64,000 nt of DNA, taken from positions 2,688,001 through 2,752,000 of the forward strand of contig CM000207.1 in assembly GCA_000002445.1 (NCBI GenBank), given 5' to 3'. The notes under the pieces were generated by a model, which saw only the letters and a program-made list of their open reading frames with translations, did not search any database and was not told where the DNA came from. This stretch comes from Trypanosoma brucei (Eukaryota). Below, in pieces: positions 1,661 to 64,000 of this stretch; the first letter of the stretch is position 1; each line of letters opens with the position of its first letter. A program made the translations under genes and the position numbers.

Positions 1661-2043
1661 GTGTGATCAAAGGAACAGAATTGTAAATGAGAAAATAATG
1701 CTTAAAAAAATTCAAGTTTCCTTGCAAATTAAATTTTAATATGATTGCTGCTGATTTTGTGAGATTTCTATTATCAGGAATTTTGCTCAATTTCACAAAA
1801 TTTGCCATTAACGGAGATTTATCTATATTTGGTAAAATATGAAATATTTTAAAAACCATTTAATAAAATGCATAAACTACATAAATTAATAAAAATTTTA
1901 CGTATAACATTTTGTTATGAAAGTGGAATATTTTTTCAAAGTAATGGGCAAATAGGGTATGAAAATGAATCATATTAATAAACTGTTCGAATTATGTTAA
2001 CTAGTAATAGTAAGAATGCCTTCCGCATGTCTGGCACCTCAAC

Positions 2044-5000: not shown

Positions 5001-5382
5001 TGACGATGTCAAAAGGGAGGCTTCCGAAAAGTGGATTGAACGGCATTTTGCACGGAGGGGGAAGGAGCCACCGCGACGAGAGCACTACGAATTGTGGACT
5101 GATGGATCCGTGTCCCTCTGTGAGAAGTCCGGAGCAGTTGCTCTGCTCTATAAAAACAATACGCTTATTTGTGCACCCAAAACCGGAGCAGGGGAAATCT
5201 CATGCAGTTACAGAGCGGAATGCGTAGCATTAGAGATAGAACTGCAACGGCTGCTGAAATGGCTTCCGGCATACAGAAGCACACCGAGCAGGTTGTCCAT
5301 CTTCTCTGACTCGCTGTCAATGTTAACAGCACTGCAGACAGGCCCCCTAGCCGTAACGGACCCAATTCTAAGACGACTATGA
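2044..5382 (+). CDS. ingi polyprotein, N-terminal 1112 aa: 2A-like peptide, AP-endonuclease, reverse transcriptase, start of RNase H; ends at in-frame TGA 5383-5385
   Basis: ORF track 1112 aa; motifs DVEENPGP, RT segment ...PVTLTSCLCKVMERII... and GFFADDLTLLA (Y/FxDD box), RNase H-like ELWTDGS...AECVALE. Confidence 0.9.
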   Translation: MVPWSSTPYHRGKPRASSVPFMGNTAASWLSPMIQHRDQQRLAGTPFFICRSLGTSKRAISSIIRTKMLLSGDVEENPGPSLRGMQWNCAGLSQGKRLALHKTLVDERIAFCLLSETRMTLGEEACFTVSGYQHHGIARNCKGGGVSILVREDLLVETGMAVVGRIEQVHATIHLARGTALTVTSAYVPPKHTFTATDLDTLLTTDGAQLIGADANAHALAWDRTSPPNTKGETLTQWCIDNQFLVCNTGECTRYARHHGESTLDVTLSRNCTVYMWTSLYSPDSDHHNIFFDVIVGDDTDALSCTRPRMPMYVWLKADWRNFRLKVDELCRKIGREKNVNTLEQKLSSAIRIATKMFVPRGCRATPPHWTPTLTKLDEEIAGCGPSHRREMLVATRKQILDRTTKKRWRTLCSRLAVSDRCSWHIVKKVYAPRPLTTLAVLVDNAAITDYRQAERFSKLYSSRARRQPDSHPPAPIKTIASEFSPITMAELRRSIKLLPTGSAAGPDCLYNEALQHLGRKALNVVLRLFNESLRAGVVLPAWKIGVIIPILKAGKKAEDLDSYRPVTLTSCLCKVMERIIAARLRDTVESQLTPQQSGFRPGCSTLEQLLHVRAALCRPTHQHRTGAVFVDYEKAFDTVDHDKIAREMHRMKVSPYIVKWCVSFLSNRTGRVRFKEKLSRSRTFERGVPKGTVLGPIMFIIVMNSLSQRLAEVPLLQHGFFADDLTLLARHTERDVINHTLQCGLNVVLQWSKEYFMSVNVAKTKCTLFGCTERHPLTLQLDGERIGADRTPKLLGVTFQRLHGMATHAAETRRKMDFRILQIAAISASTWGPRRQVLRAFYLALVQAHTMYGIEVWYWDASERSRDLLAAAQHKASRIIAGIPHGTRKEDSLLEANLLPLKTTTLVRSMKFMLMCESRGGCLRRSAEEVYHSKHPVRALHSRIMLSYPLLHIEPREHPLETSTLRHSCRPLFHTQIKPVCADDPDDVKREASEKWIERHFARRGKEPPRREHYELWTDGSVSLCEKSGAVALLYKNNTLICAPKTGAGEISCSYRAECVALEIELQRLLKWLPAYRSTPSRLSIFSDSLSMLTALQTGPLAVTDPILRRL
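2260..2283 (+). other. 2A-like ribosome-skipping peptide motif (DVEENPGP) at codons 73-80 of ingi ORF
   Basis: gat gtg gaa gag aat ccc ggc ccg read directly from sequence; matches the D(V/I)ExNPGP 2A consensus reported for L1Tc/ingi-clade elements. Confidence 0.85.
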
Positions 5383-5412
5383 AGGCTTCTGCTTCAAGTT
5401 CAGAGAAGGAAG

Positions 5413-6741
5413 GTGCGTATCAGACTGCAATTTGTGTTTGGCCATTGTGGCGTGAAACGGAATGAGTTTTGTAATGAAATGGCCAAAAAGGCCGCTGATT
5501 TACCACAGTTGCGAGACACATGGATCCCCGACATCATTGCTTATGCGAAGCGAGTGCTTAGGTCGGAAGAAGTCCATGAGAACACTCATAGGTTTGGTAT
5601 CACGGGCAACCACTTTCCAACAAAACATAAGGAAGAACTGACGAGGGAAGAAGAAACGGCACTGGCACGCTTTCGGGTTGGGTCTTCAAGACACTATGGA
5701 TGGATGTTGCGAAAGATCAACCCGAGTGTGCCTCCACAGTGCCGATGGTATAACCCGCAACATGCAGCGATAGGACCAACAATACAAACAGCCCCAACTG
5801 TTGCGACACGCACTCTTCAGAGAACCTCCGAACCGACCAAATGTACGGAATGTGATGCCACATACCAATGCCGCTCGAGTACTGTAACGCACATGGTAAA
5901 CAAACATGGCTTTGTGCGAGCTGATGCCCACCGGAGGATCAAATACGGCGATGCAACACCCGCAGTGGATATCCCCCCGGAGCCCCCTCCAGTGGTGGCG
6001 ATCGTTCCTTTACTATCGAGCACACGAGTCCTGATGAGACCGCAGGTGCTTCATTGTACCATCTGTGCCTCCAAATTCGCAGTACCAGGCCGACTACTAC
6101 ACCACCTTAGAACAATACATGGCATAGGTAGCGGTAGTTGCCGCGTGAAAAGGGGGCGAGAGAACGAGGACTCAGTGCAAGGAGATGGTAGAGCCCCAGC
6201 AGCGCCAGTCTCTCAGGATACACGGAAGCTGCCGTTTCAATGTGACCTGTGCGAGACGAGCTTCGGTACACGCTCTTCCCGGTCACTACACAAGAAATTC
6301 AAACATAAGAGCATAGTGACGGAGGACGGTACCGTGGTGGTGGTGCAATTCCCTCGTAAGCGTGCCCGTGAAGGAAACGTTGACGTCCCGGGGAAAGGCG
6401 AGGTGCAGTGTGGTGTGTGCCAAAAAGTGCTCAGTTGCAGGGATTCTCTCATCCGACACTGTAAGGCTTTCCACAAAGGTGAGGGAGTCGAGGTTAAATG
6501 CAGCAAAAGCACAAAATTGTGTGCCACTGATTCCCCGCATACAAATGCATCCATGTTGGTGTGCCTGACATGCGGAAGGCAGTGTGCTAGCAAAACTGGC
6601 CTCACCCTACATCAAAAGAAGATGCACGGTATGAAGGTAGAGCGCGCTGTTACCAGCCAACGCGGCGACTGCGAAGAAACGGCGCTGCACCTGATGAGCT
6701 GTCCCGGTTTGAAGGAATTACGTGTCAGGTTAGCTGTATAA
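5413..6741 (+). CDS. ingi polyprotein C-terminal portion (same frame as 2044..5382, separated by one TGA): end of RNase H plus four C2H2 zinc fingers
   Basis: Same reading frame (positions 1 mod 3) as upstream ORF; fingers CTICASKF..HHLRTIH, CDLCETSF..HKKFKH, CGVCQKVL..RHCKAFH, CLTCGRQC..HQKKMH. Confidence 0.85.
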   Translation: MRIRLQFVFGHCGVKRNEFCNEMAKKAADLPQLRDTWIPDIIAYAKRVLRSEEVHENTHRFGITGNHFPTKHKEELTREEETALARFRVGSSRHYGWMLRKINPSVPPQCRWYNPQHAAIGPTIQTAPTVATRTLQRTSEPTKCTECDATYQCRSSTVTHMVNKHGFVRADAHRRIKYGDATPAVDIPPEPPPVVAIVPLLSSTRVLMRPQVLHCTICASKFAVPGRLLHHLRTIHGIGSGSCRVKRGRENEDSVQGDGRAPAAPVSQDTRKLPFQCDLCETSFGTRSSRSLHKKFKHKSIVTEDGTVVVVQFPRKRAREGNVDVPGKGEVQCGVCQKVLSCRDSLIRHCKAFHKGEGVEVKCSKSTKLCATDSPHTNASMLVCLTCGRQCASKTGLTLHQKKMHGMKVERAVTSQRGDCEETALHLMSCPGLKELRVRLAV

Positions 6742-12744: not shown

Positions 12745-13145
12745 TGATACCGCGCGCAGCACGAAATGCAGAGCTGAAATCCACAGAAGCAAAAAAAGTT
12801 AAAACTACGGGCTAAGGTGCAGGTGAAAAAATTAAGTGGAGTTGGACGTGGGGGGCAAATAAGGGTTAGGGTTGCATTAAAAAAGAGCGGCTGCATCATT
12901 AAAAAAAAAAAGAGAGCTAAAGTCGCTACAGTTCACTGCTATTAAAAAAACTTATTAGTAGCAGGAGAAATAACCCTAACCCTAACCCTAACCCTAACTA
13001 ACCTAACTACCCCCCCCATTCCTACCTACCTACAAAAATAAAAAAACAGGAAAGAAGAAAAAAAATTTTAGCTGTCAGAAAATATTTTTTTACAGAATCA
13101 CAAATTTTTACAAACTTTACAACAAACAAAAAAACTCGGCTGGTT
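12745..13145 (-). repeat. Telomere-hexamer cassette copy A: GGGTTAGGGTT (12863-12873) ... ~90-bp conserved spacer ... (CCCTAA)4 (12974-12997), plus conserved flanks
   Basis: Read directly; on the minus strand (TTAGGG)4 runs in telomere orientation immediately 3' of VSG 13227..14796; homologous copies at 16540-17345, 25015-25585, 45240-45700. Confidence 0.8.
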
Positions 13146-17345: not shown

Positions 17346-17413
17346 TTTCCGGTGAACTTACGTGTTATAATATATAAAATTTCAGCAAAGGTAAATTGAG
17401 GGGAGAAATTTGT

Positions 17414-19229: not shown

Positions 19230-20389
19230 CTATTTCAAGTTTGAATGGTAGGCAGGCAGCCTTATTTTTTCTTTTAGTTGGCTTCTCAACGGAATGTATC
19301 CATATGCGTTTACGTGGTGCAAAACAATAAGGTTAGGATTTTCTTCTACAAATTTCTCGAGTGGCCTTTTCACATGCATCACAAAATGACAATCTTTCAT
19401 ATCGACCGTCAAAAAGTCCTCAATTTTAAGTTTATTCTTTATAACTTCTCCAACAATAATATCTTCATTGAGTGCTCTAAAATCCATATATGTTTCCAAA
19501 TTTCTGAATTTAATCGTTAACTTTACTAATTTTTTCAAAGGTTTATAATCAACTATTTCCTTCACCACATCCCTGTATAGTGTGAACGCATAACCAATGG
19601 TATGCCATGTAATTTCATTACTAAATTCTTTATAATAACCAACAGCTCTCCCCATATTCAATTTCTCTTGTGGTAATATTTCAAGGTATTGCAAATACAT
19701 TGGCACCCTCATAAATATATCATCATCTGCTTTCATTATATAGGGATTAGCTGACTTGAATGTATAAACTGCAAATTTGAATCACAAATATGTTTTTCTA
19801 CTCATCGTGAGATCTTATTCCCAGCCCCAATTCCTCAACCCTCCAACTTTTTTATTTGCTGTTGGATTCACATCACAAACAGGTAAAATTATAATATCCT
19901 GGTATAACTCTGCATCTCCTTCAACAATTTCTCTGAGCTCGCAATTATTATTTGTATGAGGGGAATGAGCATATACTATAAGCAACTTCCCACTAAAATT
20001 ATTTGACTTACGTGCCAATTCATGGTAACTCTAACAAGTTTCCCTCTGTAGATTCCTTCTTCTGAATCTTTCATCATTATCTATGGAAGATATTCCAGAT
20101 ACAACAAAATAATCTTCAGTTTTCCAAATACTCATAACATCCTGCGAAACAAATCTCATATACTCATCTTCAACAATCTCCAGTGAAATGGATTCACCCT
20201 CACTAAACAAACTGTATAGTACACATATAAAATAATTACCATAGAAATAAAAGATAAACAACTCACTTTTGCATAGATACCTCCCATATGGTTTATAACT
20301 TCCTGTTTTCGTACTAATGAAAACTTTAAATATCTTATAATATCATTGTATAAAACAAAAGAGAGGAAGTTAGTTGCAGCATGATTCAA
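19230..20389 (-). pseudogene. GT31/GT67-type UDP-Gal/UDP-GlcNAc-dependent glycosyltransferase pseudogene (4 frame-broken pieces)
   Basis: TM segment, then SGISSIDNDERFRRRNLQRETC (ExxxRxTW-type motif), then GDAELYQDIIILPVCD, then MKADDDIFMRV (DDD catalytic motif of beta-1,3-glycosyltransferases), spread over ORFs 20156..20389, 20031..20261, 19815..20018, 19230..19736. Confidence 0.75.
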
Positions 20390-20426
20390 GTTTTATTGTT
20401 TAACAAGTTTGCATTTTTTACTTATG

Positions 20427-20470
20427 ATATATATATATCGGCCTATATATATATATATATATACATATAT
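20427..20470. repeat. (TA)n microsatellite
   Basis: tatatatatatcggcctatatatatatatatatatacatatat. Confidence 0.9.
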
Positions 20471-21169
20471 CTATTATTTATGGCCCCCACATGCTGGGTA
20501 TGGTGCCCAACTCCTGTTTTGTAGATTCATCCATAATGAAATTATGGCGCAGACGCTTTGTCGTGCGCATGGCATCGAGGCTACCCAGTGTATTTCAGGT
20601 TAAGTATCAGTCTTCATATGTTATTCACCAATGGCTGTCCTGAATACACTATTTCTTGTAGAGTTCATTTGTTTTCCCATATCAATACCGCGGTGTTGTG
20701 CATTCTTATGTGATCTATACATTCTTTAAATGTGCTCAATCTGTTGGCATTGAGCTATTAAGTTGGGAGAATAATAATTTTAAATTATCTGTATAAATTT
20801 TTTTGTTGGATTCCAGCAGTACTTGCTGATTCTGTTCACGGTTTTGCCATCTTTTGCTTGCATTGTAGTCAGTGGCCTCCTTTTGTTTGCCGCTGCGTAC
20901 AACATAGTAGCTACATCTGTCTTTCCATTGCTTTGGTTCTCTCAAGGAAGGAGTGCTGCATGTTGCTGCGTCTGAAAATCCTTCTGTGCTGCTATGGTTG
21001 AAAGCGCAATAAATCTATTGTCCTCTGTGAATTTTCTTTCAATAATCTTCTTGCTTTATTTTACTCGCTCTTTGTCACTCTCTTACTCACATGGTATTCT
21101 TGATATTGGTTTTAGATCTTGTGGTTTTCGGGTGTATTTAGTGCTTATCACAGCCCTTATTATAATATT

Positions 21170-21250
21170 TGTATATACACACTCACTACACTTTCCTATC
21201 AATATCAATATAGTTGTAGCTATTATTGTAACCCTAACCGTATTATATCC
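21170..21250 (-). repeat. 70-bp repeat followed by TAACCCTAACC junction motif
   Basis: TATATACACACTCACTACACTTTCCTATCAATATCAATA...GTAACCCTAACCG. Confidence 0.6.
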
Positions 21251-42756: not shown

Positions 42757-44436
42757 TATTTTTTCTATTTCTGGCTTATTGTTCGTTGTGTGTTTGGCTA
42801 TGTAATAGCTGCGACACGATGGTTCTTAGATTGGCACGGTGACGTTGTTTCTTCTGTTTTTCTGGCTTATTATCGTTCAGTTGGGAAAAGGTTATTAGAC
42901 TCTGTTTGCAGCTTGTGGAGTGCAGCCCACGCCGCCGCTACAGCTGCTGATAAGCTCGATATATTCGGCTGTCAACGCTTTTCAGAAGCAGCCTGCTGTG
43001 CCACCGAAACCGCATTCTGGTAGCTGCTTTCTTATGCGATCACTTAAATTTACCGTCTTGAATTAAAAAATTTACTAACATCAATTATTTCATGTCCAGC
43101 CTCCATCCAAAATTTTTCCATATTTACCAACACAATATTGGATATCGATTCAAAATTATATCTAAAGCACTCTCCTTGTTTCTTCTCTGCACATTGTGAT
43201 TGCATATACCTCCTTATTTTTTATAGTTGTGATTAAATGTATTAAAACTTCTTCTCGGTCAGGTTTCTGACTATTCCAACCATATTTGACACTCAGAATC
43301 TCACCGTTAAAAAATTTCTTGTACTAGTGCTGCAAACATCTGCGTTATTTTCCGCGTCAATTTTGTTTAAAGGTAGTTTGTAGATCTGTCAAATTTGCTA
43401 TCGATCGCCTCTTTGCCTCGCGTTCTCGAAGTATTGCAGCTGACAGCCTGTCGACTAAAGTTGGTACTAACATTGCTACGCACGGCATCAGTCGCCCTGA
43501 CGCAGATCCTTGGCTTTCGCTGCTTCTTCAGACTTTGTGGTTGCAAATCTTTTAACACAAAGAGTTTTTAACAAGTACAAACTAACACTAGCTCTTAGTT
43601 GTATTCGTCTCCCCTACTTACTTTCTTCTTTCTCACTTAACGATACAGAAAGCTGCAGGGTCCAGAAATACATATGGGAAGTCGATGCTATTTACTGTTT
43701 CCTTACTGGGTGATTCGAACCACTTGCACTTTTCCATGTTTTTTAGCTTCTAACATGCCAAATCTGCAGCTTAGACTTGCTTTTTACATTTTGGATGCTA
43801 ATACAGAAAATAAAGAAATGTTTGCGCCCATACAATACCTTGCCGATTTGGCTACGTCTCAAAACAACGAAGACTCAGTGTTTCCACACTATCTTCTCAT
43901 TCAAAAACGCTTTGATCACCGATATACCATGCCGGTTTTGACTCATTCTTTTATCTGCTTCTATTTTTACTAATTTAGCGCTACTTTTGTTTCTTTCTGT
44001 AAGTTCAACTGTGGCCATTGTACGCTTGCCTCTGAATACACTTTCTAGCTGTCGTTAATACAGGTACCACAAGCACTTTAAGATGAGTTATACGCTCTTT
44101 ATCTCGTCAATTACCTCCAATGTTGCTATAAGGTACAAAGGTATTATATTCCTTATTTTCCTTTCTTCCTTTCCGCTTTCTGTCACTGTTTCTACAGATT
44201 CCGTAGTTACTCTCCTTAGCTTATACACTGGAATTCGACTCTCCCTGATTATTCTTTCTACAATCTAGTTATGTATAATAATATCCATAATCATGTTTGA
44301 GCATGAACTGCCTATATTTCATCTCCTCATTCTCCTCTTCACTCTTCTACTTACTCCCATTGCATCCTTGGAATTTTTAAAAATGTTTCTATTTATCGAA
44401 TCCACTTCGTACTCTCATTATTGCTCTCATTATAAT

Positions 44437-44660
44437 ATTCGTATATACACACTCACAACACTCTTCTATCATTATCATCATCATTATTATTATTATTATT
44501 ACTGCTCTTATTATAATATTCGTATAGACACACACTCACAAGACTCTCCTATCATTATCATCATTATTATTATTATTATTATTACTGCTCTTATTATAAT
44601 ATTCGTATAGACACACACTCACAAGACTCTCCTATCATTATCATCATTATAGCCCTAACT
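44437..44660 (-). repeat. 70-bp repeats, three tandem units (~80-bp period)
   Basis: Three near-identical units CTCTTATTATAATATTCGTATA(G/T)ACACACACTCACAA(G/C)ACTCT(C/T)CTATCATTATCATCATTATTATTATTATTATTACTG read directly. Confidence 0.9.
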
Positions 44661-51419: not shown

Positions 51420-51530
51420 ATATACAGTCATTATTATCATTATCATTGTTATTATTATCATTACTATTAATATTACTACTTCTTTTATTATAATATTTGG
51501 ATATGCACACTCACAACACTCTCACCGTTT
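51420..51530 (-). repeat. 70-bp repeat(s), minus orientation, upstream of VSG 48275..49837
   Basis: CTTCTTTTATTATAATATTTGGATATGCACACTCACAACACTCTCACC preceded by TTATTATCATTATCATTGTTATTATTATCATTACTATTAATATTACTAC. Confidence 0.75.
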
Positions 51531-51599
51531 TATACTAAAGTAGAATATGAAATATTATATTTATACACTTATACTGTTATATTTAGTATTTTCAAGCTC

Positions 51600-52340
51600 A
51601 GTACCTATTCAAGAAGAAACAACGGCAAATATGGCAGAGAAGGGCCTTAAGAAGCCAAGAATATTTGTGGTTGTAGTTCAAACTCATGCAACTCAAGGAT
51701 GGTGTAGGCTCATATTGAGTGCCAAACTAAACAATGTTGCAATTATTATAATTGCAATGGGTGGTCTGTATAGTCATGTTAAAAGGCCTAGATGGGTTAT
51801 GGAATTTTAGAAAAACAGAATGCATGTAATAAGGATATTGTAATAACTGTTTGATGGGTCTGATGTTATTGTTACTGACGGACAAAAGTGTGAAGATGCT
51901 GTGGAGTATTTTAGTCATGACAACATCAGAGTGTTATGCTCCTCAGTTGATTTTGCTCATGAACTCAGATCACAAGGAGCATGTGCAGAGATGTTATTGG
52001 TATTTCAATGTTGTAAACAGGAAAGAGGAGGATAAAAAGTTTCCTCATTTACTAAAATCACCTCCTAGTGGAAACCCCTATCTTAGTGGTGAAAATATAA
52101 TAGCAAGAGTCTGGGCATTTAAGAAATTTGAATGTGCATTTGGAGAGTTACTGAAAGAAAGTGATGAATGATTGCCAGAGAAGAGTATTTATGCTACACT
52201 GCTAATTGGTAGTGTTACTTAAAAGGAAGCTGTTGGACAGAGATTTGTTTTGAAGCGAGGAATGATTGGTCTGGATTATGAAGAGAGATTATTTTCTTTT
52301 CCGCATAGTGATAAAATTGGAAAGGCTGTATTTATTTATT
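51600..52340 (+). pseudogene. Fragmented copy 3 of unassigned array-associated family
   Basis: ORFs 51547..51810 (IFVVVVQTHATQGWCRLILSAKL...IAMGGLYSHVKRPRWVMEF) and 51851..52171; further homology to copy 2 continues to ~52340 with stops. Confidence 0.6.
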
Positions 52341-52922
52341 TCACAGGACAGCGAATGGCATGAGAGGAGAAGGAAAAATTGATTGCGATGAATTTAAGTT
52401 AATTTAGAGAGTGAGAAAAGAGGATATTTGGTGTAAAAGATTTGGCAGAAATTTAAACTTATTTGATTGACAGTGAAAAATGGAATTTTGAATATGGTGA
52501 GGTTCGCGGAGAGGTGTCAAGTGATGGGAAGTTGTTTAACGCTAAGAAATTGTAGTTGATAACCGGTGGAAGCAAGCAAATAAGCATGTCTAGGGGCGGC
52601 TAAGTATAATAATAGCGACTCATATGGAGGAAGTACCAGAGTCAGAGCTGAATTAAGCAGTTTTGACTAATGCTTCCTTAATTCCGCAGATTATCAGTTG
52701 TGGAGTAGCAAATACATGGCCATCGGATTCCACATGGAAGAGCAGAGTGCCAAAATCGCAGTCAAGCGCAAAACCACTTCGAACATCTATAGCAATTAAA
52801 TTAAAAGGCAAAACTCAAAACAACCGACGACTGGTTACAACATCAGAAAACTGGAGTAGCTGCAGAAACACAATACAACAACCTCCTTACCTCGCTCAAC
52901 CTAAATACAAGGAGAAACAGGC

Positions 52923-54377
52923 ATGATAAGAGCGATAGCCACAATAGCTTTGCTGAGCGCAGGTGCGGCAAGAGCTACACCGCCGGCAGACGACGACAAC
53001 ATAGCAACGCTGACATTGCTTTGCCCAGCACTGCAGTTAGCGGACGGCAAAATAACATTCGAGCCGACGCGACCGACGACGGCAGCAGATATTAATGATC
53101 TGCTCGCTTTAAACATGTCCCTTGCGGATTCAACTTGGCAAGCGAAATTCCAAAAAGCAAAGTCTGACAAAAGTAGCTCAAGTGACCTGGAACGGGCCAA
53201 GGAAGAAAAACTGGGAACTCAAGCTGAAATGACAGCCTGGGCCACAGCCGCCTAAGCAATCAACTCAAAAACTAAATTAGACGCCGTTCTCAAACCGTAC
53301 GGATACGACTCTACAAACATGTCCTTGCTAGCCACAGCGGCTCAGGAAATAAAACACTACACCGCACTGGCCTTTGACGCGCAGCAGCAATTAGCAGCCG
53401 CAACCATCAACGACAAACCCGATACAGAGTTAAAGCAAGCACTAGACAAAGCGATATACGGCGGGTCAGGCGGATACAAAAACACTAGGACAAAAGATGC
53501 AGGGCTCAACAGCGCCGAACCTCGCCAAACCGCTTGCGTAGAAGCCGCCAACACACACAATCCGATCAAAACAATATCCACCATAGTGGCCTGCATTTGC
53601 GCTGTGAAAAACGACATGTCACCGACGCCGACGGCACCGTGTGGACCAAACAGCGAACAATCGATAAAGTGGGAAGCCACCGGCCTACCACTGGCCGCGG
53701 CCTGGAACAAACTGCGCACAAGGTGCCCAGTGCTAACCGAAACAACGATAACAGCAAGCAAAGTAGAGACCGCGCTGAACACAGCCAAGCAGGCATTTTA
53801 CGGCAAAGGAACCGACCTTTACGTGGGAAAATACGACACCGCCGGTTGCGACGGGTCGGCAACCGGCGCATGTATAAAATACACAAACCAAGCGACAAGC
53901 GGCATACCCAAATTCGACAAAGCGGCGTGGGTCAGCGAGTTAACTACTATCATAACTGCACTAAGAGCCCGAGAAAAAGCGACCGAACGCATAAACGCGC
54001 TCCAAAACCAAATAGCGACAGCAAAAGTATTAGTAGCAGCCGCAGCTAAACATCCGCAGAGCATGAGCGACAGACTAACCGACACTGGCGGTAAAACGCA
54101 AAAACCAGAAGACGGCGACACCATTAAAGCGGCACAAAAAGAAATAGACTGCACATCACTGGACAAAGAGACATGTAAACCCGACGTTGGGTGCAAATAT
54201 AATGAAAAAGAAAGCAAATGTGAAAACGACTCTGTAAAAACTACAACAACTCCAGCCACCACAAACACCACAGCAAGCAATTCTTTTACAATTAAGAAAG
54301 CCCCTCTTTTGCTTGCAGTTTTTCTTCTAAAATTAAAAAATTTAGAATTTAATCTCGAGTTTATTATTTTATTTTAA
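52923..54377 (+). pseudogene. VSG (leader plus N-terminus 52923..53255, stop, then 53319..54377 with GPI signal SNSFTIKKAPLLLAVFLL)
   Basis: ORF track; B-type motif LLALNMSLADSTWQAKFQK. Confidence 0.85.
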
Positions 54378-54539
54378 AATAGTTAGATATATTTAAACCC
54401 TCTTTCATAAAAATGTTCAGATTAGTAACTTTTTGCGTTAATGTCGCATATAGCTGTAAAATAGTATAGTGATGGGGTATGAAAAATGAGTGTTATTCTA
54501 ATATTGTATATTTAATTTATTTTGTGGGTATTGCTTAGA

Positions 54540-55721: not shown

Positions 55722-57133
55722 GTGGCAGCCGATTTTTCTGAACTCGCGAATGCTAACGAAGCGACGGCGCTTTGTGCGATCGTAACACTCGCCGGCCAGC
55801 GGTCTTCGTTACCCAGCAGCAACGTACAACCACCGTCAGCCCTCAACGACCTCTTAGACCTCAACATGTCGGTGGCGACAAACGAATGGCGGGAACTCTT
55901 CAGGGCAGGGCCAGGGAAAAACACAACGAGGGATTTCCCTGAGGCCGACTACAATGAAACAACAGACTGGAAAGGAAAATGGGCCGCATGGAAAAGCAAA
56001 GCAGAAGAGCTTCTGAGCACAGACAAACTTAAAGCCAAGAGGGAGCAACAAGGGCTAAAACATGCAACTGAAGAACAGATAGCCGAAATCCGACGCGACG
56101 TGCAGAAACGTGCGGCGGAAGCGGTGGCGCTTCACTTCCAAGCAGAAGCGGACGCGCCATCGACAGACCTTCTAACGGACGAGACAATACAACAGCTTCT
56201 AAACGAAGCAGTCTACGGCCAAAAAACGGAAGCAACAGGTCAAGCTTTGGCAAAAAACAATTTCGACGAGACAACAGGCGGCAGCAGGCAGGCGCTCTGC
56301 ACAGGACAAAAGGATGGCGGAAAAACAAAAACGGTCCTCGGTACGCTGGCGTGCCTCTGCATGAAAGAAAGCACCAACAACGCCCATAATCAACACAAAG
56401 TATGCCGAGCCGATCCCGCCATGTCGGCAACATGGACCCAAGGTAGTACGCCGCCGAATCAAGCGACGATGGAGGAAGTGAAAAAACTGTGTGACACTCA
56501 AACGACAAGCCAAATAACTGCGGCGAAGCTAGAATCAAAAATAGACGCCATAACAAGCCTTATAAAGTTAGACACAACAAAGGCGACCCTCGGTGTGTAT
56601 CTAGGTACAGACTGCTCAGCACAAGATACAAGAGGGATATGTGTAAGCTACAACGGCCTTTCACAAGGAGCGGGAAAAGCCAGCGAAGTGATACCTTGGC
56701 TGGAGCAGCTTACCGACCTGCTAGGAAAATTACGAAAACATAAAAAAGCCGTTGCAATCCGACAGCACACTGCAGATGCAGTAAAGTCAAAAGCCAAGAT
56801 AACGAAGGACCTAATCTACCATGCGCGACCGTGGGCAAACAAAAACGTTGCTCAGAAGAATGTCAAAAAAAAAATAGTGACGACGCAACCTTAGCAAAAA
56901 CAAAAGAATGCGCACAACACAAAAATAACAAAAAACCTTGCACAGGAGCGAAATGCTCATGGAAAGGTGGAGAAAGCGAAAACAAAGGGGAGTGCGAAGT
57001 AGATGAGAAACAAGTTAAAAAGAAAATAAAAACAGAAAACAGTGAAAATGCAGGAACAACAAACACTACAGGAAACGATTATGCTGTTATTAACAAGTAG
57101 CCTCTTTTTCTCGCAGTTTTGCTTCTAGAATAA
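55722..57133 (+). pseudogene. VSG (390-aa ORF 55722..56894, frameshift, C-domain 56831..57100, GPI tail PLFLAVLLLE* in third frame to 57133)
   Basis: ORF track plus manual reading 57098-57133. Confidence 0.8.
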
Positions 57134-57510: not shown

Positions 57511-58204
57511 AAAACTGTATGTATTTCTAAAATAGAGGCACTTAAAACAGTGCTACTGCTACTAAAGAAGTAGATGGTTGAATGGGAGAGAAGAGGAATA
57601 TTAATAAAGGAAATTCAGAAGAACGAAGAAATAAAAGGATTTAAATATTCGCAATTTCTTACACTCTGCCGGACATCACCACATAAGAGAAAGCTATGGA
57701 GAGGACAGTGAGGGACACAGAGACTCTATTTTATCGGTAGTGGCAGAGGCGGTGACCGCCAAAGTCTGAAAATGTGGAAGTAAAGGACGGAATAAAAGAC
57801 GCAGCAAAGCACAGAGAAACAAGACAGGAGGCGATAAAGCGCTGTATTTCACTCAGACATGGATAGATGGAAAAGTGGAGATGATTGTTGTAATAACAAT
57901 AGTAGCAGTAGTTTATCAACTTATAATGATGTGTCTCTCATGATAAAAGTCAATTGGCGGGGAAGGTTGCGCAGAAGTCTTTAAAATCTTAGCACACATG
58001 ACCCAGTGGCGCACCTAGCTACTGCAATTCACATAACAATGTGTAGAGGGAAATATAGATGCAGGTGAAAATATAAGGTGCGCACACCGAACATACATCT
58101 TTCGACAGATACATGATAACAATATAAAGACATTGCTTACGTAAATACTGTTTCCTTAAATAAACACCTTAGTGCCACAACTGACTTCTTTCTTAACAAC
58201 CTCT

Positions 58205-59250
58205 ATGATATTATAAGATATTTAAAGTTTTCATTAGTACGAAAACAGGAAGTTATAAACCATATGGGAGGTATCTATGCAAAAGTGAGTTGTTTATCTT
58301 TTATTTCTATGGTAATTATTTTATATGTGTACTATACAGTTTGTTTAGTGAGGGTGAATCCATTTCACTGGAGATTGTTGAAGATGAGTATATGAGATTT
58401 GTTTCGCAGGATGTTATGAGTATTTGGAAAACTGAAGATTATTTTGTTGTATCTGGAATATCTTCCATAGATAATGATGAAAGATTCAGAAGAAGGAATC
58501 TACAGAGGGAAACTTGTTAGAGTTACCATGAATTGGCACGTAAGTCAAATAATTTTAGTGGGAAGTTGCTTATAGTATATGCTCATTCCCCTCATACAAA
58601 TAATAATTGCGAGCTCAGAGAAATTGTTGAAGGAGATGCAGAGTTATACCAGGATATTATAATTTTACCTGTTTGTGATGTGAATCCAACAGCAAGTAAA
58701 AAAGTTGGAGGGTTGAGGAATTGGGGCTGGGAATAAGATCTCACGATGAGTAGAAAAACATATTTGTGATTCAAATTTGCAGTTTATACATTCAAGTCAG
58801 CTAATCCCTATATAATGAAAGCAGATGATGATATATTTATGAGGGTGCCAATGTATTTGCAATACCTTGAAATATTGCCACAAGAGAAATTGAATATGGG
58901 GAGAGCATGGGGTGAACTTGACGAGTATTGGAAAGCTGACGTGTTATGTCGTTGGGTATGCGAACACAATTTCGAGAGATGTTGTAAAAGAAATAGTTGG
59001 CTATTCGGGAATTTCCAAACTATTATCCAACAAAGTGAGCTTTCGAAATTTCGAAAAATATATTGAATATGCTGCTTTGAACGAAGATATTATGGTTGGT
59101 AAGGTGATAAGGCACAAAATAAAAATTGAAGGTCTATTGACTGTGAATATACAAGATTGTAGCTATGTTATGCACTCAGAGTCACACCCAGAAGCTTTTA
59201 ATTACGGCAACAATAGTGATGCATTATTTAAAAGAGAGTGATTACACCTT
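58205..59250 (+). pseudogene. GT31/GT67-type glycosyltransferase pseudogene, inverted paralog of 19230..20389
   Basis: ORF 58290..58520 is 76/76 aa identical to 20031..20261; 58533..58736 differs by 1 aa from 19815..20018; MKADDDIFMRV motif at 58815; diverges after ...LNMGRA. Confidence 0.75.
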
Positions 59251-59511: not shown

Positions 59512-60268
59512 ATGTTTCAAACCACATTAGTAACAGCAATAACAGTAGTCCTTTTTGCGGATAAATGTGCACCGACAGCAGGACACAATATCAAAGAATT
59601 CGCGCTAATGTGTCAACTATTTACCACGTGCGAACAGGGGACTTCAACCACTGGAAACGAGGCTGAACCAACACTAGAATCTGAAACAAAAAACGTTAGT
59701 CGTCAATAACATGTCGGCAGCAGATGAAGAATTCTTCGGAAGTAACTTCGACGACGTCCAAGACCATAAAAAGGACAAGAACTACGCAAAACACAAAAAC
59801 ACTTGGGCACAAACTAAAAAAAAGGATTTAGGCACAAAAAAGATAGGAAATATACCGGAAAAACTTACACGTATGACCGCCGGTACACTTCGGTTCGGTA
59901 TACAACAACAAGCACTGGAAGCGATACCTAACCTCGAAGCAGAAAAAGCGGCGTTGCCCAAGGACAAGACAACGATAACGATAAATTATGACCTAAAGGA
60001 GGTTCTGTACGGCGAAGGAAACACAGAAGCAAAGGGTACCTGGCAGTCAACGTTCGGCAGCGGCGGCAACGCAGCATGCGGCAATGACGGTAGCGCAGAC
60101 AACAAGGTCGGCACATCTCTAGCCAACGGCCTGGCCTGCCGTTGCGGCGACAACTCGGACGACACGGCTGCCGCAGGTTGTATAAGCAACAGGAGCTCAA
60201 CCGGAAGCAAGTTCGCCAGCGAAGCCTGTGGCCCAGCACCCAAAGCGACAATAGTGGCGAAATACTAA
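59512..60268 (+). pseudogene. VSG N-terminal fragment (leader 59512..59709, frameshift, N-domain 59711..60268), 3' part replaced by ingi copy 2
   Basis: ORF track; LACRCGDNSDDTAAAGC-type VSG N-domain motifs. Confidence 0.6.
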
Positions 60269-60602
60269 AAAAAACAGCACTACTGGAAGCACTCCTCGTG
60301 ACTTTTAAGTCATTATTAGGCAAACATGCCGTACACACGCCATCGGCGCAGTACAACTACGGCCCCTGGCGATGCCGGCCACCTCAACGTGGTGCCAGGG
60401 TCCAGTACCCCGTATCATCGGGGGAAGCCAAGAGCCAGCAGAGTTCCTTTCATGGGAAACACTGATGTGCTCCGGCTACGGCATCATACAGCACAGGGAT
60501 CAGCAGCGTCTTGCTGGGACACCGTTCTTCATTTGTCGGTCCCTGGGCACGTGCCAGCGTGCCATCAGCAGTATCATCCGCACTAAGATGCTGCTGTTCG
60601 GT

Positions 60603-60626
60603 GACATGGAAGAGAATCCCGGCCCG
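60603..60626 (+). other. 2A-like motif DMEENPGP in ingi copy 2
   Basis: gac atg gaa gag aat ccc ggc ccg within ORF 60372..60680. Confidence 0.85.
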
Positions 60627-60739
60627 TCGTTGCGCGGGATGCAGGGAACTGCGCCGGGCTATCTCAAGGAAAGAGATTAGCACTCCAAAAAACCCTTGTT
60701 GATGAGCGGATCGCCTTTTTTCTGTTGAGCGAGACAAGG

Positions 60740-63700
60740 ATGACGCTTGAAGAGGCGGCTTGCTTTAGCGTTGCTGGCTACCAACATCACGGAATAGCTC
60801 GTAACTGCAAAGGAGGTGGTGTATCAATACTAGTGAGGGAGGACCTACCAGTTGAGATCGGTATGGCCGTTGTTGGTCGCATTGAACAAGTGCATGCAAC
60901 AATTCACCTTGCACGTGGAAAGGCGCTGACTGTCACGTCGGCATACGTCCCACCAAAACACACCTTCACGGCAACTGACCTAGATACGCTTCTGACAACT
61001 GACGGTTACCAGCTCATCGGTGCAGACGCTAACGCACACGCGTTGGCATGGGATCGCACGAGCCCACCAAATACCAAGGGTGAAACCCTCACACAGTGGT
61101 GCATTGACAACCAGTTTCTGGTCTGCAACACTGGTCAGTGCACCAGGTACGCGCGCCACCACGGGGAGTCCACCCTTGATGTGACACTGTCAAGGAATTG
61201 CACAGTGTACATGTGGACATCGCTGTATTCTCCCGATAGCGATCACCATAACATATTTTTCGACTTTATCGTTGGAGATGACACAGATGCACTGAGTTGC
61301 CCGCGGCTTCGAAAGCCCATGTACGCATGGCTAAAAGCTAACTGGAGGAATTTCCGTCTCAAGGTTGACGAGCTCTGCAGGAAAATTGGTAGAGAGAAGA
61401 ACGTCAATACCCTGGAACAGAAATTGAGCTCCGCCATCCGCATTGCGACGAAGATGTTCGTCCCCCGTAGCTGCAGAGCAACGCCACCACATTGGACACC
61501 AACGCTCACTAAACTCGATGAAGAGATCGCTGGATGCGGACCCTCCCACCGAAGGGAAATGTTGGTAGCCACGCGTAAGCAGATCCTGGACCGTACCACA
61601 AAGAAGAGATGGAGAACGCTATGCTCCAGACTTGCGGTGTCAGACCGCTGCAGTTGGCACATTGTCAAGAAGGTATATGCGCCACGACCACTAACCACAC
61701 TGGCTGTACTTGTTGATAACGCGGCCATCACGGACTACCATCAAGCTGAGAGGTTCAGTAAACTGTACTCGTCCCGTGCAAGAACGCACCCCGACTCACA
61801 CCCACCGGCACCAATAAAGACGATAGCGAGTGAGTTCAGTCCCATCACGATGGCTGAACTATGGAGATCGATCAAACTGCTTCCGACCGGATCCGCAGCA
61901 GGACCTGATTGCTTATACAACGAGGCAATACAACATTTCGGTAGAACAGCGCTGAATGTTGTTCTGAGGCTATTCAATGAGAGCCTACGAACGGGAGTCG
62001 TGCTGCCTGCATGGAAGATTGGTGTTATCATCCCCATCCTGAAGGCCGGAAAAAAGGCGGAGGACCTCGATTCTTACAGGCCTGTGACGCTCACAAGCTG
62101 TCTCTGCAAAGACATGGAGCGCATAATTGCCGCGAGGCTTAGAGACACTGTTGAGTCCCAGCTGACGCCGCAGCAATCAGGCTTTCGCCCCGGATGCTCA
62201 ACGCTCGAACAACCGCTGCACGTCCGCGCTGCCCTCTGCCGCCCCACGCACCAATATCGTACAGGTGCTGTATTCGTTGACTACGAGAAGGCATTCGATA
62301 CAGTAGACCACGACAAAATTGCGAGGGAAATGCACAGAATGAAGGTATCACCCTACATTGTGAAGTGGTGCGTATCATTTCTGAGTAACCGAACTGGAAG
62401 AGTGAGATTCAAGGAGAGGCTTTCCAGAAGCAGAACATTTGAGCGAGGAGTGCCACAAGGAACTGTCCTTGGCCCAATCATGTTCATTATTGTCATGAAC
62501 TCGTTGAGCCAGCGCCTTGCAGAAGTGCCGTTGCTGCAGCACGGATTCTTTGCAGACGACCTAACGCTACTTGCGAGACACACAGAGAGGGATGTCATCA
62601 ACCACACACTGCAATGCGGCCTAAACGTGGTGTTACAGTGGTCACAAGAGTACTTCATGTCTGTCAATATAGCGAAAACAAAGTTCACACTCTTCGGGTG
62701 TATAGAGCGCCACCCCCTTACATTGCAACTGGACGGCGAAAGAATAGGAGCTGACAGGACACCGAAGCTTCTCGGAGTAACATTCCAGTGTCTGCAGGGG
62801 ATGGCAACACATGCAGCCGAAACGAGACGCAAGATGGACTTCCGACTACTGCAGATAGCATCCATCTCAGCTTCTACATGGGGGCCAAGACGACAAGTAC
62901 TGAGAGCTTTTTATCTAGCACTCGTACAGGCACACACCATGTATGGCATTGAGGTATGGTACTGGGACGCTTCGGAACGAAGTCGCGACCTCCTTGCAGC
63001 AGCACAACACAAAGCCAGTCGCATCATAGCTGGCATACCGCATGGGACGCGCAAAGAGAACTCTCTGCTGGAAGCAAACCTCCTGCCACTCAAGACGGCC
63101 ACTCTTGTGCGCAGCATGAAATTCATACTGATGTGTGAGTCACGAGGCGGATGTCTGCGCCGCAGTGCTGAGGAAGTACACCACAGCAAACATCCAGTCA
63201 GAGTCTTACATTCCCGCATCATGCGGTCCTACCCCCACCTCCGCATTGAGCCACGCGAGCACCCACTGGAGACATCGACACTCCGCCACAGCTGCCGACC
63301 GCTATTTCACACGCAGATAAAGCCTGTGTGCGCTGATGACCCTGACGATGTCAAAAGGGAGGCTTCCGAAAAGTGGATTGAACGGCATTTTGCACGGAGG
63401 GGGAAGGAGCCACCGCGACGAGAGCACTACGAATTGTGGACTGATGGATCCGTGTCCCTCGGTGAGAAGTCCGGAGCAGTTGCTCTGCTCTATAGAAACA
63501 ACACGCTGATTTGTGCACCCAAAACTGGAGCAGGGGAACTCTCATGTAGTTACAGAGCGGAATGCGTAGCATTAGAGATAGGACTGCAACGGCTGCTGAA
63601 ATGGCTCCCGGCTTACAGAAGCACACCGAGCAGGTTGTCCATCTTCTCTGACTCGCTGTCAATGTTAACAGCACTGCAGACAGGTCCCCTAGCCGTAACG

Positions 63701-64000
63701 GACCCAATTCTGAGACGACTATGGAGGCTTCTGCTTCAAGTTCAGAGAAGGAAGGTGCGTATCCAACTGCAATTTGTGTTTGGCCATTGTGGCGTGAAAC
63801 GGAATGAGGTTTGTGATGAAATGGCCAAAAAGGCCGCTGATTTACCACAGTTGCGAGATACATGGATCCCCGACATCATTGCTTATGCGAAGCGAGTGCT
63901 TAGGTCGGAAGAAGTCCATGAGAACACTCATAGGTTTGGTATCACGGGCAACCACTTTCCAACAAAACATAAGGAAGAACTGACGAGGGAAGAAGAAACG
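60740..64000 (+). CDS. ingi copy 2 polyprotein: open frame (positions 2 mod 3) from ATG 60740 to window edge, more than 1080 codons (endonuclease, RT, RNase H), no internal stop; absent from the ORF track probably because no stop codon is reached
   Basis: Manual codon-by-codon reading against copy 1 found no in-frame stop; copy-1 TGA (5383) is TGG at 63733-63735; a 1-nt deletion at ~60648 separates it from the 2A-containing ORF 60372..60680. Confidence 0.7.
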   Translation, partial: MTLEEAACFSVAGYQHHGIARNCKGGGVSILVREDLPVEIGMAVVGRIEQVHATIHLARGKALTVTSAYVPPKHTFTATDLDTLLTTDGYQLIGADANAHALAWDRTSPPNTKGETLTQWCIDNQFLVCNTGQCTRYARHHGESTLDVTLSRNCTVYMWTSLYSPDSDHHNIFFDFIVGDDTDALSCPRLRKPMYAWLKANWRNFRLKVDELCRKIGREKNVNTLEQKLSSAIRIATKMFVPRSCRATPPHWTPTLTKLDEEIAGCGPSHRREMLVATRKQILDRTTKKRWRTLCSRLAVSDRCSWHIVKKVYAPRPLTTLAVLVDNAAITDYHQAERFSKLYSSRARTHPDSHPPAPIKTIASEFSPITMAELWRSIKLLPTGSAAGPDCLYNEAIQHFGRTALNVVLRLFNESLRTGVVLPAWKIGVIIPILKAGKKAEDLDSYRPVTLTSCLCKDMERIIAARLRDTVESQLTPQQSGFRPGCSTLEQPLHVRAALCRPTHQYRTGAVFVDYEKAFDTVDHDKIAREMHRMKVSPYIVKWCVSFLSNRTGRVRFKERLSRSRTFERGVPQGTVLGPIMFIIVMNSLSQRLAEVPLLQHGFFADDLTLLARHTERDVINHTLQCGLNVVLQWSQEYFMSVNIAKTKFTLFGCIERHPLTLQLDGERIGADRTPKLLGVTFQCLQGMATHAAETRRKMDFRLLQIASISASTWGPRRQVLRAFYLALVQAHTMYGIEVWYWDASERSRDLLAAAQHKASRIIAGIPHGTRKENSLLEANLLPLKTATLVRSMKFILMCESRGGCLRRSAEEVHHSKHPVRVLHSRIMRSYPHLRIEPREHPLETSTLRHSCRPLFHTQIKPVCADDPDDVKREASEKWIERHFARRGKEPPRREHYELWTDGSVSLGEKSGAVALLYRNNTLICAPKTGAGELSCSYRAECVALEIGLQRLLKWLPAYRSTPSRLSIFSDSLSMLTALQTGPLAVTDPILRRLWRLLLQVQRRKVRIQLQFVFGHCGVKRNEVCDEMAKKAADLPQLRDTWIPDIIAYAKRVLRSEEVHENTHRFGITGNHFPTKHKEELTREEET

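What the first reader, a model, noticed from the sequence alone, without database searches (positions are those of the whole stretch)
58205..58905. ~700-bp near-identical patch between inverted glycosyltransferase pseudogenes suggests recent gene conversion
The GT pseudogenes at 19230-20389 (minus) and 58205-59250 (plus) are diverged paralogs on both flanks (roughly 70-80% identity after ...LNMGRA and upstream of the TM region). Between ~19650-20340 and ~58205-58905 they are almost identical: 76/76 and 66/67 aa in two ORF pieces, and the same frame-breaking lesions. A sharp identity block inside older diverged homology, 38 kb apart in inverted orientation, is the signature of a short gene-conversion tract. 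A (TA)n microsatellite (20427-20470) sits about 90 bp from one tract boundary.
Basis: seen in the sequence. Interest (0 to 1): 0.55.

Follow-up and report, generated by a model that had tools for sequence, protein, structure and literature searches.

The report
Recent gene-conversion patch between glycosyltransferase pseudogenes
Two dead glycosyltransferase gene copies, 38 kb apart and facing opposite ways in a trypanosome surface-antigen gene array, share a 702-base stretch that was copied from one to the other recently, which is real but ordinary for this recombination-prone type of region.

Summary
Window 19645-20346 (minus) and 58205-58906 (plus) are 702 bp with 2 mismatches and no gaps (99.7%). 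This is the most identical dispersed repeat in the window.

The block runs from 59 bp upstream of the start codon to the Ala codon of the conserved LNMGRA motif of a GT67-family (beta3GT-like) glycosyltransferase pseudogene. Both copies share three in-frame stops and one frameshift, so the sequence was already dead when copied.

3' of the block the copies belong to different subtypes. A is 74% aa identical to T. brucei protein P0003. B is 76-79% identical to P0001/P0002. A and B are only 48-64% DNA identical to each other there. This segment incongruence, with in-register junctions, supports a recent non-reciprocal, homology-directed copy (ectopic gene conversion).

- There is no detectable A-B homology upstream of the block.
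- The 3' flank is 48-64% identical, not 70-80%.
- The 3' edge coincides with a family-wide step from conserved to hypervariable sequence.

Direction is unresolved, leaning weakly B to A. No other-strain DNA could be reached to date the event. Gene conversion in T. brucei subtelomeric VSG arrays is well known, so interest is low.

The parts
58205..58906 (+). Copy B of the 702-bp near-identical block. It holds 59 bp of 5' UTR or upstream DNA, the start codon at 58264, and the N-terminal two thirds of a GT67-family glycosyltransferase pseudogene, ending in the Ala codon of LNMGRA.
   Evidence: blastn 99.7%, 2 mismatches, 0 gaps; alignment of the edges; break point test
19645..20346 (-). Copy A of the same block, in inverted orientation, 37,858 bp from copy B.
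58518..58769 (+). Span holding the three in-frame stop codons shared by both copies: TAG 58518-20, TAA 58734-6, TGA 58767-9. In A they lie at 20033-20031, 19817-19815 and 19784-19782. A shared frameshift lies further 5', at about 58320-58335.
   Evidence: the family proteins have W, A/P and W at these positions
58907..59241 (+). B-specific 3' part of the pseudogene, of the 'GELDEY...YVVGYANTISRDVV' subtype. It has its own frameshift at about 58932-58936 and a degenerate tail after about 59165.
   Evidence: 76-79% aa identity to T. brucei P0001/P0002 against 51-53% to A and P0003; tblastn frames
19230..19644 (-). A-specific 3' part, of the 'GYYKEFSNEITWH' subtype. It is an open reading frame continuous with the last piece of the block, down to the stop at 19230-19232.
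   Evidence: 74% aa identity to P0003 against 51-58% to the other family members; ORF 19230-19736
58094..58204 (+). 5' flank of B. It is still homologous to the 5' flank of a T. equiperdum GT paralog and includes a pyrimidine-rich stretch just before the block edge.
   Evidence: local alignment score 33 against shuffles 9.8 +/- 1.6, 0 of 1000 reaching it; three-way alignment
20347..20470 (-). 5' flank of A. It has no detectable homology to B or to the T. equiperdum paralog. It contains a pyrimidine-rich stretch next to the edge and an imperfect (TA)n tract at 20428-20470.
   Evidence: not significant; (TA)5 and (TA)10
21147..21207 (.). 70-bp-repeat-like unit upstream of GT A. The order is 70-bp repeat, GT pseudogene A, then the VSG pseudogene (18973 down to about 17414), so GT A sits inside a VSG cassette.
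   Evidence: VSG 3' 16-mer at 17362-17377
59512..60268 (+). VSG fragment starting about 260 bp after GT B, the same spacing as the VSG after GT A. It is cut off by a retrotransposon at 60380.
   Evidence: ORFs; VSG_B Pfam hit, E=1.7e-12; retrotransposon repeat

Best explanation
The window is a Trypanosoma brucei-group subtelomeric VSG array. [quoted passage not shown] They belong to different subtypes, and each lies about 260 bp upstream of a VSG.

Recently, about 0.7 kb of one pseudogene was copied non-reciprocally onto the other by homology-directed repair (ectopic or segmental gene conversion). The copied stretch runs from just 3' of the upstream pyrimidine tract, through the start codon, to the LNMGRA motif.

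The 3' end of the tract stopped where family sequence similarity collapses, at a hypervariable loop. The 5' end stopped at the limit of A-B homology.

Shown:
- the block, its edges and the shared lesions;
- the different subtype of each 3' part;
- in-register junctions.

Inferred:
- the repair mechanism (a break in the recipient, strand invasion within the roughly 75-80% similar N-terminal region, and copying);
- the direction, weakly B as donor and A as recipient;
- the recent date.
For: 1. 702 bp are 99.7% identical. Other paralogs show 78% DNA identity over the same region (T. equiperdum L001 vs block), and subtype A vs subtype B proteins show 75-76% aa identity there (P0003 vs P0001/2). 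P(<=2 differences | 22% divergence) is about 4e-72.

2. The segments disagree. A's 3' part groups with P0003 (74%), B's with P0001/P0002 (76-79%), and A vs B is 51% aa and 64% DNA identical there.

3. Three stops and one frameshift are shared, and the 59-bp non-coding leader is identical. So the identity is not due to selection, and copying came after gene death.

4. Both junctions are collinear with intact family members. LNMGRA is followed by GYYK.. in A and by GELDEY.. in B. The first mismatch is the third base of the Ala codon. This points to homologous rather than random joining.

5. Both copies carry the same sequence, so the event was non-reciprocal.

6. Context: VSG_B domains, 70-bp repeats, VSG 3' 16-mers and ingi-like retrotransposons. 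Frequent gene conversion of subtelomeric VSG genes and segmental conversion involving pseudogenes are documented (PMC2854126, PMC3708902). Glycosyltransferases are a known subtelomeric component, 1.1% of subtelomeric genes (PMC2854126).

7. Direction: the block's N-part is least similar to the only A-subtype protein (72-73% to P0003 vs 77-79% to P0001, P0002, P0004 and the T. equiperdum paralog). B's 5' flank continues family homology across the block edge at the same level (0.58 on both sides of the edge).
Against: - No A-B homology is detectable upstream of the block. A classical two-ended conversion therefore cannot be shown for the 5' end. That end may instead be a microhomology or template-switch junction.
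- The direction tests are weak. Only one A-subtype protein was available. Counts of deviations at invariant positions are uninformative: 10/94 in the block, 5/25 in A's 3' part and 2/25 in B's 3' part.
- A third, unseen donor elsewhere in the genome cannot be excluded.
- No orthologous locus from another strain could be retrieved. The unconverted ancestral state has therefore not been seen.
- Raw reads are not available, so the assembly cannot be checked.
Confidence: 0.77

Rival explanations
1. The 5' end was not resolved by homology. This is a one-sided event: a break near A, for example at the (TA)n tract. One end invades B within the GT coding region, synthesis runs out through B's 5' UTR, and the new end is joined to A's unrelated flank by microhomology-mediated end joining or template switching. 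It is still a non-reciprocal copy, but not a classical conversion tract inside homology.
For: A's flank upstream of 20346 has no significant similarity to B or to the T. equiperdum paralog, whereas B's flank does match that paralog. The identity ends abruptly within 1-2 bases. A (TA)n tract that can form a cruciform lies 82 bp away, on the A side only.
Against: Both flanks have a pyrimidine-rich stretch, and a collinear 23-nt 78% match lies 10-12 nt from the edge (TGC..CAACT.ACTT.CT.TCTT). This could be eroded homology of two native GT 5' regions. The pre-event sequence is unknown, so microhomology at the junction cannot be read.
Confidence: 0.25
2. A and B did not exchange with each other. 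One or both received the block from a third copy elsewhere in the genome. Alternatively, the block is the remnant of a recent duplication whose 3' part was later overwritten by another paralog.
For: Only 64 kb of the genome is visible. Pseudogenes are absent from the protein databases, so further copies could not be counted. N-terminal parts across the family are roughly equidistant (75-83%) while C-terminal parts are strongly structured. That pattern is compatible with repeated N-part exchange in the family.
Against: Only two GT copies exist in the window. The closest database relatives are 73-79% identical to the block at the protein level. The simplest account needs one event between the two visible copies. 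This rival still requires gene conversion with a junction at LNMGRA.
Confidence: 0.12
3. Assembly or polishing artefact: a repeat-induced chimera, or homogenisation of paralogs during consensus polishing.
For: Subtelomeric arrays are hard to assemble, and reads were not available to check.
Against: The two copies differ at two positions. Each is joined in register to unique sequence on both sides, and there are no Ns in the window. A mis-join inside the repeat could swap flanks, but it could not create the two copies. Polishing cannot turn about 78% identity into 99.7% over 700 bp.
Confidence: 0.05
4. This is a simple recent duplication of a whole gene, or strong purifying selection on the N-terminal domain, with no conversion.
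For: The N-terminal region is the more conserved half of the family.
Against: Identity is not uniform: 99.7%, then 48-64%. The 3' parts belong to different subtypes. The block has three stops, a frameshift and an identical non-coding leader, so selection on the protein cannot maintain it.
Confidence: 0.01

Closest known systems
Segmental (mosaic) gene conversion among silent VSG genes and pseudogenes in T. brucei subtelomeric arrays
   Same: It has the same genomic compartment and the same outcome: a short non-reciprocal tract inside an ORF, pseudogenes as substrates, and junctions in register within regions of partial homology (PMC3708902, PMC2854126). Here the tract is 702 bp and ends where homology collapses.
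   Different: The substrate is a glycosyltransferase pseudogene pair rather than a VSG. Both partners are silent array copies on the same chromosome arm in inverted orientation, not an expression-site copy. The product is still a pseudogene, so no antigenic or functional benefit is apparent.
[quoted passage not shown] TbGT3, TbGT8, TbGT10, TbGT11, TbGT15)
   Same: The conceptual translation is 65-69% identical to annotated T. brucei TREU927 family members (E down to 2.5e-125). It keeps the DDD (DxD-type) motif in KADDDIF and a hydrophobic N-terminal segment. Pfam Galactosyl_T scores 22.8 bits.
   Different: Both copies are pseudogenes, with stops and frameshifts. They sit in a VSG array rather than a housekeeping region. 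The Pfam score is just under the gathering cut-off of 23. The family is reported as 19 genes 'excluding predicted pseudogenes' (PMC8477195).
Ectopic (interlocus) gene conversion between dispersed paralogs in general, e.g. palindrome-arm and segmental-duplication conversion in other eukaryotes
   Same: There is a high-identity tract with sharp break points and phylogenetic incongruence between adjacent segments. Inverted repeats on one chromosome act as partners.
   Different: Only one side of the tract lies in demonstrable older homology. The partners were only about 75-80% similar, which is low for efficient RAD51-dependent exchange. That last point rests on my own knowledge of homology requirements and was not tested here.

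Membership tests
GT67 / beta3GT-superfamily glycosyltransferase (as a pseudogene) | Significant full-length sequence similarity to characterised or annotated family members | tested here: met
GT67 / beta3GT-superfamily glycosyltransferase (as a pseudogene) | Match to the Galactosyl_T (PF01762) domain model above the curated cut-off | tested here: inconclusive
   22.8 bits against a cut-off of 23, E=9.1e-5. The intact relatives P0001, P0002, P0004, P0006 and P0007 carry PF01762.
GT67 / beta3GT-superfamily glycosyltransferase (as a pseudogene) | DxD-type metal/nucleotide-sugar motif and type II membrane-anchor topology | tested here: met
   KADDDIF is conserved in both copies and in all relatives. 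A hydrophobic N-terminal stretch (CLSFISMVIILYV) follows the ATG at 58264 but is broken by the frameshift. This was read from the sequence; no topology predictor was run.
GT67 / beta3GT-superfamily glycosyltransferase (as a pseudogene) | Intact open reading frame (a functional gene) | tested here: not met
   Three in-frame stops and a frameshift lie in the shared block, and B has a further frameshift. Both copies are therefore pseudogenes.
Gene-conversion tract | A block of much higher identity than the adjoining homologous sequence, with a statistically supported break point | tested here: met
   2 differences in 702 columns against 98 in 264. Max chi2 is 280.5 at 58906, and 0 of 1000 permutations reach it.
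Gene-conversion tract | Older, diverged homology on both sides of the tract | tested here: not met
   3' side: yes, 48-64% DNA and 51% aa identity. 5' side: no significant A-B similarity.
Gene-conversion tract | Phylogenetic incongruence between the tract and its flank | tested here: met
   The 3' parts fall into different subtypes (A with P0003, B with P0001/P0002), while the 5' parts are identical.
Gene-conversion tract | Non-reciprocity, and an unconverted ancestral state seen at the orthologous locus of a relative | not testable with these tools
   Both copies carry the same sequence, so the outcome is non-reciprocal. No orthologous locus could be fetched: exact-protein look-ups all failed. 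The only outside DNA is a different T. equiperdum paralog.
Transposed or retroposed fragment (considered and rejected) | Target-site duplications, a poly(A) tail or terminal repeats at the block ends | tested here: not met
   No such features appear at either edge. The 3' edge is in register inside a codon of the host gene.

The most novel reading that the evidence does not exclude
The two 702-bp, 99.7% identical inverted copies bracket a 37.9-kb stretch of the VSG array that contains the divergent strand-switch (about 51.5-54.5 kb). The copies may be an active recombination substrate. Crossing-over between them would flip the whole segment, giving an inversion polymorphism between strains or within populations.

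More broadly, GT-pseudogene modules sitting about 260 bp upstream of VSGs might serve as alternative upstream homology for moving VSG cassettes that lack their own 70-bp repeat. The VSG after GT B is such a case.
Probability: 0.08. Interest if true: 0.45.

Novelty: new member of a known kind. Interest (0 to 1): 0.2.

Why it matters
It is a clean example of ectopic conversion in a silent VSG array, seen in a neutral substrate. Because the substrate is a dead non-VSG gene, the tract length (about 0.7 kb), the edge positions and the age (2 differences in 702 bp) reflect the recombination process itself, without antigenic selection.

Such tracts could serve as markers for how often, over what distance and in which orientation array sequences exchange. 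The event also creates a long perfect inverted repeat that could drive a 38-kb inversion.

It does not change the current understanding of trypanosome subtelomeres, where gene conversion is already known to be frequent.

Tried and rejected
1. Cross-strain comparison. Exact-protein look-ups failed for junction-spanning and block ORFs (168, 83, 76 and 109 aa), for a neighbouring VSG and for TREU927 relatives P0001, P0002 and P0005. Ten window ORFs are not in the protein collection. Only a T. equiperdum contig with a different paralog could be fetched.

2. Homology searches found no orthologous locus. I searched with the VSG next to B (one hit, 82%, no contig) and with B's 3' part (no closer relatives).

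3. Direction from decay level. Deviations at family-invariant positions are 10/94 (block), 5/25 (A 3' part) and 2/25 (B 3' part). The counts are too small to discriminate.

4. Direction from the two mismatches. S/N at 58696 is polymorphic in the family, S in P0001/2 and N in P0003, P0004 and the T. equiperdum paralog. 58877 is silent. Neither is informative.

5. Residual homology upstream of the block between A and B is not significant.

6. Mobile-element signatures at the block edges: none found. A 19-nt near-repeat spanning A's 5' junction (20335-20353 vs 19889-19907) is probably chance in AT-rich DNA.

7. A shared frameshift between the block and P0002 turned out to be a different indel position, so it was not used.

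8. The literature search found no paper that discusses conversion of GT pseudogenes specifically.

Full report
**Context**

The window is a subtelomeric VSG array of the Trypanosoma brucei group.
- Several ORFs carry the VSG_B domain (E down to 5.8e-59).
- 70-bp-repeat-like units recur upstream of the VSGs.
- The conserved VSG 3' 16-mer occurs 7 times against 0.03 expected.
- Two ingi-like non-LTR retrotransposon copies (RVT_1 plus endonuclease domains) lie at 2035-5658 and 60380-64000, 96.6% identical.
[quoted passage not shown] This is the GT67 / beta3GT-superfamily group, described as 19 genes excluding pseudogenes (PMC8477195). Glycosyltransferases make up about 1% of subtelomeric genes in T. 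b. brucei (PMC2854126).
- tblastn finds exactly two copies in the window. Copy A is on the minus strand at about 20346-19230. Copy B is on the plus strand at about 58205-59250.

**The observation**

- blastn aligns 19645-20346 (reverse complement) with 58205-58906 over 702 bp, with 2 mismatches and no gaps.
- The exact runs are 491, 180 and 29 bp.
- Apart from tandem 70-bp units, this is the most identical repeat in the window. The next is the retrotransposon pair at 96.6%.
- The shared lesions are three in-frame stops (TAG 58518, TAA 58734, TGA 58767) and a frameshift at about 58320-58335, between the start-codon frame and the main frame.
- The imperfect (TA)n tract lies at 20428-20470, 82 bp from A's edge.

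**The edges**

A global alignment and a three-way alignment with a T. equiperdum paralog show two different kinds of edge.

3' edge:
- Identity drops inside the Ala codon of the conserved LNMGRA motif. The first mismatch, at 58907, is its third base.
- It falls to 48% over the next 45 bp and 64% over the following 215 bp, then to noise after about 59165/19385.
- A max-chi-square scan places the break exactly at 58906/19645 (chi2 280.5; the permutation maximum was 17.5).
- The same position is a step for the whole family. The T. equiperdum paralog is 78% identical to the block over the coding part. It falls to about 40% in the loop right after LNMGRA and to about 52% beyond it.
- So the tract ended where homology runs out. 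Part of the sharpness is a property of the family.

5' edge:
- The block begins 59 bp upstream of the ATG at 58264, immediately 3' of a pyrimidine-rich stretch in both loci.
- Beyond it, A and B have no significant similarity (score 11; 61 of 500 shuffles reach it).
- B's flank (58094-58196) is significantly homologous to the T. equiperdum paralog's 5' flank (score 33 against 9.8 +/- 1.6; 0 of 1000). A's flank is not.

**What the two genes are**

I aligned the conceptual translations with the six available relatives. The 3' parts fall into different subtypes.
- A (GYYKEFSNEITWH...) is 74% identical to P0003 and 51-58% identical to P0001, P0002 and P0005 (38% to the T. equiperdum paralog).
- B (GELDEY...YVVGYANTISRDVV...) is 76-79% identical to P0001/P0002 and 53% to P0003.
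- A and B are 51% identical to each other.

Proteins of these two subtypes are 75-76% identical over the N-terminal part, so about 140 DNA differences would be expected in 702 bp instead of 2 (P about 4e-72).

Both junctions are collinear with intact relatives. B's own frameshift lies about 26-30 bp 3' of the junction, not at it.

Selection cannot explain the identity, because the block carries stops, a frameshift and an identical non-coding leader.

Both loci hold the same sequence, so the event was non-reciprocal.

Together these are the expected marks of a recent ectopic (segmental) gene conversion between two long-diverged pseudogene paralogs. This process is well documented for VSG genes and pseudogenes in these arrays (PMC3708902, PMC2854126).

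**Mechanism: shown and inferred**

Shown:
- a recent copy of about 0.7 kb;
- homologous, in-register joining at the 3' end, at the last well-conserved stretch before a hypervariable loop;
- a 5' end at the limit of A-B similarity.

Inferred:
- A break in the recipient was repaired from the other copy by strand invasion within the roughly 75-80% similar N-terminal region.
- The 5' end was resolved in one of two ways. It may have used short, now unrecognisable homology of the two 5' UTR/pyrimidine-tract regions; a collinear 23-nt 78% match lies 10-12 nt from the edge. Or it may have used a microhomology or template-switch join. I give the second variant about 0.25.
- The (TA)n tract next to A could have been the break site, which would fit A as recipient. 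That link is positional only.

**Direction**

The evidence weakly favours B as donor and A as recipient.
- The block's N-part is least similar to the only A-subtype protein (72-73% to P0003 against 77-79% to the others).
- Similarity to the T. equiperdum paralog runs continuously across B's block edge (0.58 on both sides) but stops at A's edge.
- Decay-level counts and the two mismatches do not discriminate.
- A third, unseen donor cannot be excluded.

**Age**

Two differences in 702 bp is 0.28% (Poisson 95% interval 0.03-1.0%). Non-coding DNA of T. b. brucei and T. b. gambiense is 95.4% identical (PMC2854126). If the pseudogene evolves neutrally, the event is much younger than that split, so it should be polymorphic among T. 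brucei lineages. This is an inference that I could not test.

**What could not be done**

All attempts to reach orthologous loci in other strains failed.
- Exact-sequence look-ups of window ORFs and of the TREU927 relatives returned nothing.
- Homology searches with a neighbouring VSG and with B's 3' part returned no usable locus.
- The unconverted ancestral state, the genome-wide copy number of the block and read-level support for the assembly all remain open.
- An artefact is unlikely. The copies differ at two sites, and each is joined in register to unique DNA on both sides.

**Verdict**

The finding is real. The gene-conversion reading is essentially right, with corrections to the flank description.

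It is an ordinary instance of a well-known process in a region known for it, acting on non-functional genes. No paper I could search describes conversion between GT pseudogenes specifically. I therefore file it as a new member of a known kind, with low interest.

The least ordinary aspect is structural. The event left a 702-bp near-perfect inverted repeat bracketing 37.9 kb of array, including its strand switch. That repeat could mediate an inversion.

Noticed in passing
window 2035-5658 and 60380-64000: Two ingi-like non-LTR retrotransposon copies (reverse transcriptase plus endonuclease domains) lie in direct orientation, 96.6% identical over 3.6 kb. The second runs off the window and cuts off a VSG fragment (59512-60268).
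   Followed up: partly
window about 51500-54500: There is a divergent strand switch in the VSG array. 70-bp-repeat-like units and VSGs are on one strand up to about 51.5 kb and on the other from about 54.5 kb. The switch lies inside the segment bracketed by the two inverted GT blocks.
   Followed up: partly
window 12247-45694 (seven sites): The conserved VSG 3' 16-mer TGATATATTTTAACAC occurs 7 times, all on the minus strand. The plus-strand VSGs (53319-54377, 55722-56894) have no copy within 2 mismatches.
   Followed up: no
window 12971-12998: An internal telomere-like (TAACCC)4.7 repeat lies within the array.
   Followed up: no
window 44417-44650: A tandem array of 2.8 units of an 83-bp 70-bp-repeat-type sequence (94-100% identical). 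Single degenerate units occur upstream of most other VSGs.
   Followed up: partly
window 19230/18973 and 59250/59512; L001 969-2990: Both GT pseudogenes end about 260 bp upstream of a VSG start. The T. equiperdum paralog is also followed by a VSG, about 470 bp away. GT-then-VSG therefore looks like a recurring array unit. GT A lies between a 70-bp repeat (21147-21207) and its VSG.
   Followed up: partly
window 58333-58392 vs protein P0002 residues 6-25: The N-terminal 25 residues of the annotated TREU927 'putative glycosyltransferase' P0002 align to the block in the alternative reading frame. That annotated protein probably also has a frame-disrupted 5' end.
   Followed up: partly
window 20335-20353 vs 19889-19907: A 19-nt near-repeat (89%) spans A's 5' junction and matches a site inside the block. 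It is probably chance in AT-rich DNA.
   Followed up: no
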